DNA of 64,000 nt, taken from assembly GCF_009914755.1 (NCBI RefSeq), contig NC_060925.1. One strand, 5' to 3'. Shown piece after piece: positions 39,550 through 42,240 of the stretch. Numbering within the stretch: the first letter of the stretch is position 1; each line of letters starts with the position of its first letter. Source of the stretch: the human T2T-CHM13v2.0 reference genome, Homo sapiens. The notes below the pieces were generated by a model that was not told the DNA's origin, made no database searches, and saw only the letters and a list, made by a program, of their open reading frames with translations. The translations under genes were made by a program, and so were the position numbers.

Positions 39550-42240
39550 TACCCTCTTAAAGCAAGTAAAATATCAGGCAAAACATGAAATAACTATTTT
39601 TAAGACAGTGGGCCTCAGGCATTGAATTGTGTTGATTCATGAGAGACTGGAAACAAATGAATGCTACAGTTCTACCAGTTTACTGCCTAGAGAGTTTCCA
39701 GACTGCAGAGCATGGAGCCCAGTGGTCTTCTTGAGTTGAGGAAATGGAGTTAGGAATCTAAAGAAGCCAAGACAGCTAGAATTCACAGGGCAGCCACTAT
39801 CCAAAGAAACCAAACCCTTAACCTCGTATGTAGAAGAAAACATAAATCTAGGTGACGTTCGGTTTCATGATGACTTCTTAGGTACGTAACACCTCAAGGT
39901 GTGATCTGTGAAAGAAAAAATTGATGAATTGTGTTTTATCAGAATTTTAAAACTTCTATTTTGTGAAAGACATTGTGAAGAGAATGAAAAGCCACAGATT
40001 GGGAGAAAATATTTGCAGCTCACATATTTGATAAAGGATTTATATCTAGAATATATAAAGAACTCTTAAAACTCAATAATAGAAGGCTGGGTGCAGTGGC
40101 TTATACCTGAAATCCCAGCACTTTGGGAGGCTGAGGCAGGCAGATCACCTGAGGTCAGGAGTTCAAGACCAGCCTGGCCAACATGGTGAAACCCCATCTC
40201 TACTAAAAATACAAAAATTATCTGGGCATGGTGGTATGCGCCTGTAGTCCCAGCTACTCAGGAGGCTGAAGCAGGAGAATTGCTTGAACCCGGGAGGTGG
40301 AGGTTGCAGGGAGCCGAGATGGTGCCACTGCACTCCAACCTGGGCAACGAGAGTGAGATTCTGTCTCCAAAAAAACCAAAAAAAAAAAAAAAAACAAAAA
40401 AACCTCAATAATAGGAAAAACAACTCAATTTTACAAATGTACGGAAGATCTGAACAGATACTTCATTGAAGAAAATATGCAGATGGCACATAGACACAGG
40501 AAAAAGTCTTCAACATCGTATATCATTAGAGAAATTAAAATTAAAATTACAAGATGCCATAACACACTTATTAGAATGGCTATCAGAAAAACAGACAATA
40601 ACAAATTGGTAACAAGGATGCAGAGCAACAGGAACTTGCATACATTGCTGGTGAGAATGGAAAATTATATGGTCACTGTGAAAGATAGTGTCTTGTAAGA
40701 CTTAACCATACAATCCAGCAGTCAAATGCCTGGATATTTACCAAGTGATTTGAAAACTTATGTCTACATAACAACCTATATACTGATGTTCATAGCAGCG
40801 TATTCATAATTGCTAAGAACTAGAAGCAACCAAGATGTCCTTTACTAGGGGAATGGATAAACAAACTGGTACATCCATACAACGAAATACTATTCAGCTG
40901 TTAAAAGGAATAATCTTTTGATTCATGTAGCAACATGAACGAATTTTACAGTCCTCCGCTCTACCAGACCTCCGCTCTACCAGATGAACTGTTGAAGGGA
41001 GCACACATGGACGAATTTTAAATGAATTTTACTAAGTGAAAAAGCAGGCCCCAAAAGTCTGTGTATTATAATATGATTCAATTTATATGACAGTCTGTAA
41101 AAGCCACAACTAAAGAGTTGGAAAACAATTGGTTTTTAGGCATTGGGGGAAGAGGAAGTAGTTGACTGCAAAGAGGATGCACGGAGCAACGTTTAGGATG
41201 AAGGAACTGTTACATAGAGTAGTTGTTCTGTGTGTATGTATGTTCTGTATGATGCTATGTATTTGTCAAAACCTTGAAACTGTGTATCACAATGAGTAAA
41301 TTTTAATATCTGTGAACTAATCATGCATACACACACATTAATCAGGATATTGGGAGTTCCCAAAATGGAACGCAGCCTGCAATAAATGGATCTAACTGTG
41401 TTACAGATACATGGCATAACAACATTGAAGGGGTTGGGGGAAAGAGCTGATCTAAGTAAGTAACTTTGGAAAATGGTGTCTTGAGTGGAAACTATTAATA
41501 TAAGCCTAATACAAAAGGAACGGTACATAAACCTATACTCTAATTGGATAATAGTTTTTCACAGGGGTACAGGTTAACAGTTCTTTACATATATATTGGG
41601 TTTGAACAAATAAGTAAACGAGTGTTGGATGGTCAGAGCCAGGTTTCTCAGTGTTGGAAGGGAAGATACACAAGAAAGGAAGACTAGAATGAACTCTGGT
41701 ACTGGATCATAGACATAAGTACGAATTCATGTTTAGCTGGCTGACTGGATGGGTACAAAAGCAATTGTAATTGTATGCGTAACTATGTGCACACACGTAT
41801 ACATGGATTAATATACATCCATATATTACCTAGCTCTGTCCACTGAGCAAGTGCAGAAGCAGTGATACAACTGTAGTAACAAGGACAACTAGTGCCTACA
41901 AATTCTTTCTTTCTTTCTTTTTTTAAGAGACGGGGTCTTGCTCTGTCACCCAGGCTGGTCTCGAACTCCTGGCCTCAAGGGATCCTCCCACCTTGGCATC
42001 CCAAAATGCTGGAATTACAGGTGTGAGCCCCTGTGCCTGGCCCCTAGATTGTGGTTTCTAAATATCATTCTTTAATAAAATAAATAAGAGCTCTTTGTAG
42101 AAATAGCTGATTCTAGGGCTGTAGGGAAAATACAGTTTGAGCCTGGAGTATCTTGTAGTACCAGAAAGGGAAGAAGTATTCAATAAAAAAAAGGATGCAG
42201 GACCATGGCAAAGGCACACAGGAACCAAACTGAAAGAGCT
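39550..42240 (+). mobile_element. Old L1M (ORF2 end/3' UTR) interrupted by an AluS (+, about 40086-40400), the tRNA fragment and a FLAM (-, about 41905-42042)
   Basis: gccacagattgggagaaaatatttgca...atatataaagaactc; tggataaacaaactggtacatccatac. Confidence 0.75.
40947..41004 (-). pseudogene. Retroposed 5' fragment of pre-tRNA-Tyr(GTA) (6-nt putative leader + 5' exon) with an internal 16-bp duplication
   Basis: Minus strand reads gtgctc-CCTTCAACAGTTCA-(TCTGGTAGAGCGGAGG)x2-ACTGTA; 32/36 identity to the recalled tRNA-Tyr 5' half once the duplication is removed; flanked by a 16-nt direct repeat (15/16 identical). Confidence 0.85.

What the first reader, a model, noticed from the sequence alone, without database searches (positions are those of the whole stretch)
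40933..41020. Fossil of a pre-tRNA-Tyr 5' leader-exon fragment, retroposed without a poly(A) tail
Seen (minus strand): gtgctc + CCTTCAACAGTTCATCTGGTAGAGCGGAGG...ACTGTA, ending at the GTA anticodon. It is flanked by acatg(a/g)acgaatttta direct repeats (40933-48, 41005-20) that read TT/TAAAA on the minus strand, an L1-endonuclease-like site. A perfect 16-bp internal duplication (40953-68, 40969-84) carries the same G>T change in both copies, so it post-dates that mutation. Established: human tRNA-Tyr(GTA) genes have introns cut by TSEN one base 3' of the anticodon; 5' leader-exon Tyr fragments accumulate when CLP1 is impaired; tailless tRNA retropseudogenes exist. Inference: an L1-mobilised tRNA-splicing intermediate whose leader may identify the source gene.
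Basis: partly seen in the sequence, partly recalled or inferred. Interest (0 to 1): 0.7.

Follow-up and report, generated by a model that had tools for sequence, protein, structure and literature searches.

The report
Catalogued tailless pre-tRNA-Tyr retropseudogene
A 56-base copy of the front half of a tyrosine tRNA precursor was pasted by LINE-1 machinery into an old LINE-1 remnant in a CEP350 intron; it is an ordinary, already catalogued "tailless retropseudogene" with no sign of function.

Summary
On the minus strand, 41004..40949 reads a 6-nt spacer (gtgctc), then tRNA-Tyr-GTA positions 1-34. It carries 4 substitutions and a perfect 16-nt tandem duplication of positions 15-30. A 16-nt direct repeat (15/16) flanks it at a TT/TAAAATT site.

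The host is an ancient LINE-1 ORF2 remnant. In 18 of 18 related LINE-1 copies with both flanks, the target is single-copy and empty, so this is a 72-bp insertion.

It belongs to the known class of tailless retropseudogenes (Schmitz 2004; Noll 2015). Noll 2015 Table S2 lists chr1:180020386-180020429 (hg19), "chr14.trna17-TyrGTA", which I take to be this locus.

The spacer is most likely a real 5' leader. It is 5/6 identical to three chr14 tRNA-Tyr genes, and 11 of 11 sister copies carry 3-7-nt spacers.

The splicing-intermediate reading is not supported. G37 is absent, and the last two bases (TA) are shared with the target duplication. Of 11 sister Tyr copies, 10 run 4-16 nt into the intron and none ends at the TSEN site. 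Internal priming on a 5'-unprocessed precursor is the best explanation.

The leader narrows the source to the chr14 family, not to one gene. Interest is low.

The parts
41005..41020 (-). Target-site duplication, copy upstream of the element (element orientation). Minus strand taaaattcgtccatgt, preceded by ...catt, so the site reads TT/TAAAATT.
   Evidence: 15/16 to the other copy. In 18/18 related L1 copies this 16-mer is single copy. BLAST right-flank matches start exactly at 41005 in most loci.
40999..41004 (-). 6-nt spacer gtgctc, read as the 5' leader of the pre-tRNA.
   Evidence: 5/6 identical to the -6..-1 flank of three chr14 tRNA-Tyr genes (L053, L056, L057). A random 6-mer does this 5.2% of the time. 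Sister copy L064 has a 6-nt spacer identical to the L057 flank, and L069 a 5-6-nt spacer identical to the L056 flank.
40985..40998 (-). tRNA-Tyr positions 1-14, with three substitutions (6, 8, 11).
   Evidence: comparison with the exon of L057.
40969..40984 (-). tRNA positions 15-30, first copy of the 16-nt tandem duplication (G15>T).
40953..40968 (-). tRNA positions 15-30, second identical copy of the duplication.
40949..40952 (-). tRNA positions 31-34 (ACTG), the last unambiguous bases of the copy.
40933..40948 (-). Target-site duplication, copy downstream of the element. Its first two bases (40948, 40947 = TA) could equally be U35 A36 of the template, a 2-nt microhomology.
40447..40932 (+). 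Host: ancient LINE-1 ORF2 C-terminal remnant, left of the insertion.
   Evidence: window:40447-40695 matches PDB LINE-1 ORF2p residues 1075-1129, E = 3.3e-7. There are 3045 candidate relatives in the genome, the best at 75-85% identity.
41021..41160 (+). Host LINE-1 remnant continuing colinearly right of the insertion.
   Evidence: Related copy L031 across the homologous site matches ORF2p residues 1185-1263, E = 9e-17.

Best explanation
This is a tailless retropseudogene. A 5'-unprocessed tRNA-Tyr-GTA precursor from the chr14 gene family, still carrying its 6-nt leader, was reverse-transcribed by the LINE-1 machinery. This happened at a nick in the antisense strand of an old LINE-1 ORF2 remnant in what is now a CEP350 intron.

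The L1 endonuclease cut at TT/TAAAATT. The freed 3' end (...TTTTA) annealed to U35-A36 in the anticodon region rather than to a poly(A) tail. cDNA therefore began inside the RNA and ran to its 5' end. Staggered second-strand cleavage 16 nt away produced the target-site duplication.

Later the copy acquired four substitutions, and then a 16-nt tandem duplication of positions 15-30. It has no B box and a damaged A box, and it does nothing today.

Shown here: the insertion, the duplications, the empty site in related repeats, the target motif, the tRNA identity and the class-wide behaviour of sister copies.

Inferred: L1 as the enzyme, internal priming as opposed to a pre-cut RNA, and the leader status of the 6 nt.
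For: 1. Anatomy is exact.

2. Empty-site proxy. 18 of 18 related L1 copies with both flanks have one copy of the 16-mer and no insert. Their two flank matches are 72 nt closer together than in the window, which equals 56 nt of insert plus 16 nt of duplication.

3. The host is LINE-1 ORF2.

4. The site TT/TAAAATT fits the published consensus for this class, TT/WAAAAWW (Noll 2015, Results read). There is no A tail between copy and duplication. The A run belongs to the target: relatives read ...CTTAAAT... there.

5. Noll 2015 Table S2 lists chr1:180020386-180020429, chr14.trna17-TyrGTA. It is the only chr1 Tyr row among those shown, and the only row in the roughly 60-kb hg19 interval around it.

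6. 11 independent sister copies of pre-tRNA-Tyr with target duplications exist in this genome.
- All 11 have 3-7-nt spacers. In the 8 scored by script, the spacers match the upstream flank of their source gene.
- 10 of 11 end 4-16 nt inside the intron, often with 1-4 nt shared between the start of the duplication and the next intron bases.
- Unspliced, 5'-unprocessed precursors are therefore the usual template, and the end point follows the target, not a nuclease site.

7. Spacer against leaders: 5/6 to L053, L056 and L057, against a chance level of 5.2%.
Against: - The window's copy differs from 10 of its 11 sisters in ending in the anticodon instead of the intron. Only L099 does the same. 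In the predicted fold of an L056-type precursor the anticodon is paired with the intron (weak evidence). That fits priming there less well and leaves room for a template whose anticodon was free or terminal.
- Only 2 nt of complementarity are certain.
- L1 involvement is inferred from the site and the duplication, not shown.
- On the plus strand the 4 nt AGCA precede both repeat copies with a 1-nt offset. The duplication could therefore be 20 nt with one indel, which would reduce the 'leader' to 1 nt. That coincidence has a 1.2% chance under the leader reading.
- The match of the catalogue row to this locus rests on chromosome, type and my recalled hg19 position of CEP350, not on a liftover.
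Confidence: 0.75

Rival explanations
1. The template was the TSEN-generated 5' leader-exon half of pre-tRNA-Tyr, the species that accumulates when CLP1 is impaired. L1 mobilised it after priming on its last bases.
For: - The copy has a probable leader and stops within 1-3 nt of the 5' splice site.
- Such fragments exist and are TSEN-dependent (passages of review PMC7527594 citing Hanada 2013).
- Two other Tyr copies also break at nt 35-37: L099, and the tRNA/L1 chimera L063.
- A 2025 preprint argues that the tRNA halves in tRNA/L1 chimeras were cut before reverse transcription (passages).
- The anticodon is predicted to be paired in the L056-type intact precursor.
Against: - G37, the terminal base of a TSEN product, is absent, and the last two bases are ambiguous with the target.
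- 0 of 11 sister copies end exactly at the splice site, and 10 of 11 contain intron bases.
- Noll 2015 looked for truncated-RNA intermediates for 5S and U2, found none, and favour internal priming.
- One locus cannot separate the two models.
Confidence: 0.15
2. The target-site duplication is really 20 nt, with a 1-nt indel in one copy (plus strand AGCA[C]ACATGRACGAATTTTA). There is then essentially no leader, and the template was a 5'-mature tRNA-Tyr or a 5' tRNA half.
For: AGCA precedes both repeat copies. It is a derived state of the host: related L1 copies read GAAAAG there. A random spacer would mimic this in only 48 of 4096 cases.
Against: - It needs an indel at exactly that junction, plus a 5.2% chance resemblance of the spacer to chr14 leaders.
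- 11 of 11 sister copies have spacers of 3-7 nt and none has 0-1.
- Two chr14-derived sisters have spacers of 5-6 nt beginning (g)tgc, like this one.
Confidence: 0.07
3. It is a tRNA/LINE-1 chimeric insertion. The antisense tRNA half was joined to an L1 segment by twin priming or template switching in a single event.
For: The tRNA half lies antisense to flanking L1 sequence. That is the commonest arrangement in the 21 tRNA/L1 chimeras of the 2025 preprint.
Against: The L1 sequence runs colinearly through the site on both sides. The duplicated 16-mer is itself L1 sequence, and 18/18 relatives are uninterrupted there. The L1 was therefore the pre-existing target, not a co-inserted partner.
Confidence: 0.02

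Closest known systems
Tailless retropseudogenes (Schmitz et al. 2004, Genome Res 14:1911, not held and known only through citations; Noll et al. 2015, Genome Biol Evol 7:889, PMC5322556)
   Same: - 5'-complete small-RNA copy, truncated at the 3' end in a loop.
- No oligo(A) tail.
- Flanking target-site duplications.
- Target TT/WAAAAWW.
- 2 nt or more of target/RNA complementarity.
- Unprocessed tRNA precursors are a named source.
- The locus appears in their Table S2.
   Different: Nothing essential. It carries a later 16-nt internal tandem duplication. Unlike most Tyr-derived members, it ends in the anticodon rather than in the intron.
5' leader-exon tRNA-Tyr fragments (TSEN products that accumulate in CLP1 mutants; Hanada et al. 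2013, seen only through review PMC7527594)
   Same: Leader plus 5' exon of pre-tRNA-Tyr, of about the same length.
   Different: The genomic copy lacks G37 and so does not end at the TSEN cut. Sister genomic copies include intron bases. No link to TSEN or CLP1 can be read from DNA.
tRNA/LINE-1 chimeric insertions (bioRxiv 10.1101/2025.02.02.635956; passages read)
   Same: A half-length tRNA (positions about 1-37) next to L1 sequence in antisense orientation, with target duplications and an endonuclease-like motif.
   Different: Here the L1 is an older host element interrupted by the insert, not a co-inserted segment. A true sense-oriented Tyr/L1 chimera does exist elsewhere (L063).

Membership tests
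Tailless retropseudogene | Copy of a small RNA that is complete at its 5' end | tested here: met
   tRNA-Tyr position 1 is present, preceded by 6 nt that resemble chr14 leaders.
Tailless retropseudogene | 3' truncation in a loop or single-stranded region | tested here: met
   It ends at positions 34-36, in the anticodon loop of the cloverleaf. In the predicted L056-type precursor this stretch is paired with the intron, so 'single-stranded' holds for the cloverleaf but is not certain for the precursor.
Tailless retropseudogene | No oligo(A) tail between copy and 3' duplication | tested here: met
   ACTG is followed directly by the duplicated target. The AAAA belongs to the target, as related L1 copies show.
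Tailless retropseudogene | Flanking target-site duplication and an empty pre-integration site | tested here: met
   16 nt, 15/16 identical. 18/18 paralogous L1 copies are empty and single-copy there. The orthologous empty site in other species was not testable.
Tailless retropseudogene | Target consensus TT/WAAAAWW | tested here: met
   catt|taaaatt, against the consensus quoted.
Tailless retropseudogene | Target complementary to the terminal 2-18 nt of the annealed RNA | tested here: met
   A minimal 2 nt (TA = U35 A36) are shared. The range is quoted.
Tailless retropseudogene | Listed in the published human catalogue | tested here: inconclusive
   Table S2 has the row chr1 180020386-180020429 chr14.trna17-TyrGTA. 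Its identity with window ~40961-41004 rests on my recalled hg19 start of CEP350. It also rests on this being the only Tyr-like chr1 place near 180 Mb. No liftover tool was available.
TSEN-generated 5' leader-exon fragment (as template) | Carries the 5' leader | tested here: met
   6-nt spacer, 5/6 to three chr14 genes. The rival 20-nt duplication reading is not excluded.
TSEN-generated 5' leader-exon fragment (as template) | 3' end at the 5' splice site, after nt 37 | tested here: not met
   G37 is absent. The last certain base is G34 and TA is shared with the target. In the 12 intact-looking genes aligned the sequence is conserved through G37 and differs from gene to gene after it.
TSEN-generated 5' leader-exon fragment (as template) | Production depends on TSEN and rises without CLP1 activity | not testable with these tools
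   An RNA-level property, known only from the literature.
tRNA/LINE-1 chimeric insertion | tRNA part and L1 part inserted together, with one duplication around both | tested here: not met
   The duplication encloses only the tRNA piece, and the L1 is colinear across the site.
Functional tRNA gene | Complete cloverleaf with A and B boxes | tested here: not met
   ARAGORN finds 0 genes in the window. Rfam gives 0 matches at E<=10. The 3' half is absent, and three of the four substitutions lie in positions 8-19, the A-box span as I recall it.

The most novel reading that the evidence does not exclude
A minority of pre-tRNA-Tyr retrocopies break within 1-3 nt of the TSEN 5' splice site: this one, L099 and the L1 chimera L063, that is 3 of the 13 copies examined for end points. 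These might be fossils of genuine leader-exon splicing intermediates captured by L1 in the germ line, while the majority come from internal priming on unspliced precursor. If a genome-wide count showed an excess of such end points in intron-containing tRNA families, retropseudogenes would record germ-line tRNA-splicing intermediates over tens of millions of years.
Probability: 0.12. Interest if true: 0.45.

Novelty: already known. Interest (0 to 1): 0.12.

Why it matters
It matters little in itself. It is one of about 2,400 catalogued human tailless retropseudogenes, non-functional, and sits inside a repeat in an intron.

Its modest value is as a clean worked example. The host repeat family supplies the empty site, the leader shows that the template had not been processed by RNase P, and the Tyr family allows internal priming and pre-cut templates to be told apart, because its introns mark the splice site. 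On that test the Tyr copies mostly favour internal priming on unspliced precursor. That bears on a live disagreement between Noll 2015 and the 2025 tRNA/L1 chimera preprint.

Tried and rejected
- Rfam (E<=10) and ARAGORN see nothing. This is expected for half a tRNA with a duplication.
- Pfam on stop-free pieces of the host and of related copies gave no usable match. One search failed on stop codons. The PDB sequence search named the host instead.
- Schmitz 2004 (PMC524414) is not held.
- A BLAST-type search of the genome with the L057 precursor found fewer copies than the pattern searches (21 places).
- L098 and L100 and L073 and L075 have no convincing duplication or source. I left them out of the end-point count. 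L072 is a full-length copy with intron and 3' exon, and L067 and L019 are gene-like. These were also left out.
- Two Table S2 rows (chrX:44467490, chrX:63756584) were not found at <=3 mismatches. Two further TyrGTA rows of the 16 were not displayed.
- Secondary-structure predictions of the precursors have z-scores of -0.75 and -1.86 and are only weak support.
- The chimera reading, and chance or DNA-level origin, were considered and rejected.
- RT slippage as the source of the 16-nt duplication was considered. A slip on the CTG shared by positions 16-18 and 32-34 would leave A, not the observed T, at the junction. A later genomic duplication after G15>T is simpler. This is inference only.

Full report
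**What is there**

On the minus strand the window reads, from 41020 down to 40933: a 16-nt repeat (taaaattcgtccatgt), then 6 nt (gtgctc), then tRNA-Tyr-GTA positions 1-34, then the same 16-nt repeat with one difference.

Inside the tRNA part, positions 15-30 are present twice as a perfect tandem copy (40953-68 = 40969-84).

The first two bases of the downstream repeat (TA) coincide with U35 A36, so the certain end of the copy is G34. G37 and everything beyond are missing. ARAGORN and Rfam see nothing, as expected for a damaged half tRNA.

**It is not chance**

- The 21-mer spanning the D arm to the anticodon has 18 places in the genome at <=1 mismatch, against 0 for the reversed control. All are tRNA-Tyr genes or copies.
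- A 16-mer repeat with <=1 mismatch is expected 3.6e-4 times in the 251 nt examined.

**The surroundings give the empty site**

The plus strand around the insert is a decayed LINE-1 ORF2 3' region.
- window:40447-40695 matches solved LINE-1 ORF2p at residues 1075-1129 (E = 3.3e-7).
- The homologous stretch of a related copy, L031, matches residues 1185-1263 (E = 9e-17).
- Pfam gave nothing.

The genome search found 3045 candidate relatives, of which 40 were scored. Of the 29 loci cut out, 18 had colinear matches to both flanks. In all 18 the 16-mer is present once and nothing lies between the flanks. In most, the right-flank match begins exactly at 41005, and in L033 the same 16 subject bases align to both repeat copies.

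So 72 bp (56 of insert plus 16 of duplication) were added to a pre-existing L1. That excludes the reading that tRNA and L1 arrived together as a chimera.

**Class and prior description**

Noll et al. 2015 (PMC5322556; I read Results part 1, several passages and rows of Supplementary Table S2) describe tailless retropseudogenes. These are copies of small RNAs that are complete at the 5' end, truncated at the 3' end in loops, lack oligo(A), and are flanked by target duplications. They insert at TT/WAAAAWW, with the target complementary to the last 2-18 nt of the annealed RNA. Processed and unprocessed tRNAs are among the sources, following Schmitz et al. 2004, which is not held here.

The window's site, catt|taaaatt, fits that consensus letter for letter.

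Table S2 (hg19) has the row chr1 180020386-180020429 chr14.trna17-TyrGTA. It is the only row whose coordinates begin 17999-18004. With my recalled hg19 start of CEP350 (179,923,908; recall, not a tool result) that row maps to about window 40961-41004.

The only other Tyr-like place on this chromosome in my pattern searches lies at 15.27 Mb. Twelve of the 14 TyrGTA rows displayed pair with a place I found on the same chromosome in this assembly. That pairing is by proximity, not by liftover. I therefore take the locus as already catalogued. A liftover would settle it.

**Sister copies and the splicing-intermediate idea**

Pattern searches with the exon (26, 26 and 31 places, 0 in every control) recover the 13 gene-like loci and a set of truncated copies.

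Eleven independent copies have recognisable target duplications:
- L059, L062, L064, L066, L068, L069 (= L070, a segmental duplicate counted once), L071 and L074, scored by script.
- L097, L099 and L101, read by eye.

Left out were L072 (full length), L073 and L075 (no convincing duplication), L098 and L100 (uncertain origin), and L063 (chimera, described below).

All 11 have 3-7 nt between the duplication and position 1. In the eight scored by script these bases match the upstream flank of the gene whose intron they also carry. Examples are L059 7/7 to L058, L064 8/9 to L057, and L069 7/7 to L056.

Ten of the 11 continue 4-16 nt into the intron, and several share 1-4 nt between the start of the duplication and the next intron bases. 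One (L099) ends at T35/A36, like the window. None ends exactly after G37.

The usual template was therefore an unspliced, 5'-unprocessed precursor, and the end point follows what the nicked target could pair with. That is Noll's internal-priming model. The TSEN-cut leader-exon fragments are real RNA species (review passages), but nothing in this copy requires them, and its missing G37 does not fit their defining end.

I cannot exclude that origin. The window, L099 and the chimera L063 all break at nt 34-37. The anticodon is predicted to be paired in the L056-type precursor (weak). A 2025 preprint argues for pre-cut halves in tRNA/L1 chimeras. I put the splicing-intermediate origin at about 15%.

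**The leader**

gtgctc is 5/6 identical to the last six upstream bases of three chr14 genes: L053 gtgcgc, L056 gtgcac and L057 gtgctt. It is 1-4/6 to the other ten. 215 of 4096 random 6-mers (5.2%) would do as well.

The D-loop base at position 16 (C) also fits the chr14, chr8 and chr6a type, not the chr2 or chr6b-d type.

A competing reading exists. On the plus strand AGCA precedes both repeat copies with a 1-nt offset, and AGCA is a derived state of this host (relatives read GAAAAG there). The duplication could therefore be 20 nt with one indel, leaving a 1-nt leader. Under the leader reading that resemblance is a 1.2% coincidence. Under the rival one needs an indel at that exact junction, the 5.2% coincidence, and a spacer length seen in none of 11 sisters. 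I favour the leader at roughly 10 to 1.

The leader narrows the source to the chr14 family but does not name a gene. The catalogue's 'trna17' label cannot either, since the exons of these genes are identical.

**Age and fate**

Six differences over 74 site-equivalents give d = 0.081, 95% interval 0.030-0.176. With recalled neutral rates of 1.0 to 2.2e-9 per site per year this is about 37-81 My. That is compatible with the anthropoid-stem burst reported by Noll 2015 (258 of their 406 datable insertions) but is not precise.

The copy has no 3' half and hence no B box. Three of its four substitutions fall in positions 8-19, the A-box span as I recall it. It lies antisense in a CEP350 intron, between the exons at 38240-38409 and 42674-42870. 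I see no basis for any function.

**Verdict**

Interest is low.

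Noticed in passing
L063 (G000:C11:131779047-131779500, locus coordinates about 1495-1990): A sense-oriented pre-tRNA-Tyr/LINE-1 chimera. A leader (tgctt, as in gene L057) plus exon positions 1 to 35-37 is joined directly to about 420 nt of L1 ORF2 end and 3' UTR with an A-rich tail. The whole is flanked by a 9-nt repeat (ATAAACTCA). The junction falls at or within 2 nt of the TSEN 5' splice site. 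It is not among the Tyr rows I saw in Noll 2015 Table S2.
   Followed up: partly
L099 (G000:C9:135220196-135220219, minus strand): A second Tyr copy that, like the window's, ends in the anticodon (T35, with A36 shared with the target). It sits at a canonical TT/AAAAAAG site, with a 13-nt duplication and a 7-nt spacer resembling the L054 leader. It is probably hg19 chr9:125785214 in the catalogue.
   Followed up: partly
window 40083-40411: An Alu-like element interrupts the same L1 ORF2 remnant upstream of the tRNA insert. The ORF translations show typical Alu peptides and an A-rich run. The L1 remnant resumes on both sides (about 39740-40069 and 40447 onward).
   Followed up: no
window 41010-41032: An 11-nt near-repeat (gacgaatttta / aatgaatttta) sits directly after the upstream target copy. 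Related L1 copies have the same length and register there, so it is chance similarity within the L1, not part of the insertion.
   Followed up: yes
L069 and L070 (G000:C17:46478067 and 47090962): One Tyr tailless copy is present twice, in inverted orientation about 0.6 Mb apart with identical flanks. The retrocopy was carried along by a later segmental duplication on chromosome 17.
   Followed up: no
L072 (G000:C2:218731534): A full-length copy of the chr8a-type tRNA-Tyr gene, including the intron, the 3' exon and 12 nt of trailer, about 10% diverged. It is either a retrocopy of a complete primary transcript or a DNA-level duplicate. No target duplication was found by the script.
   Followed up: no
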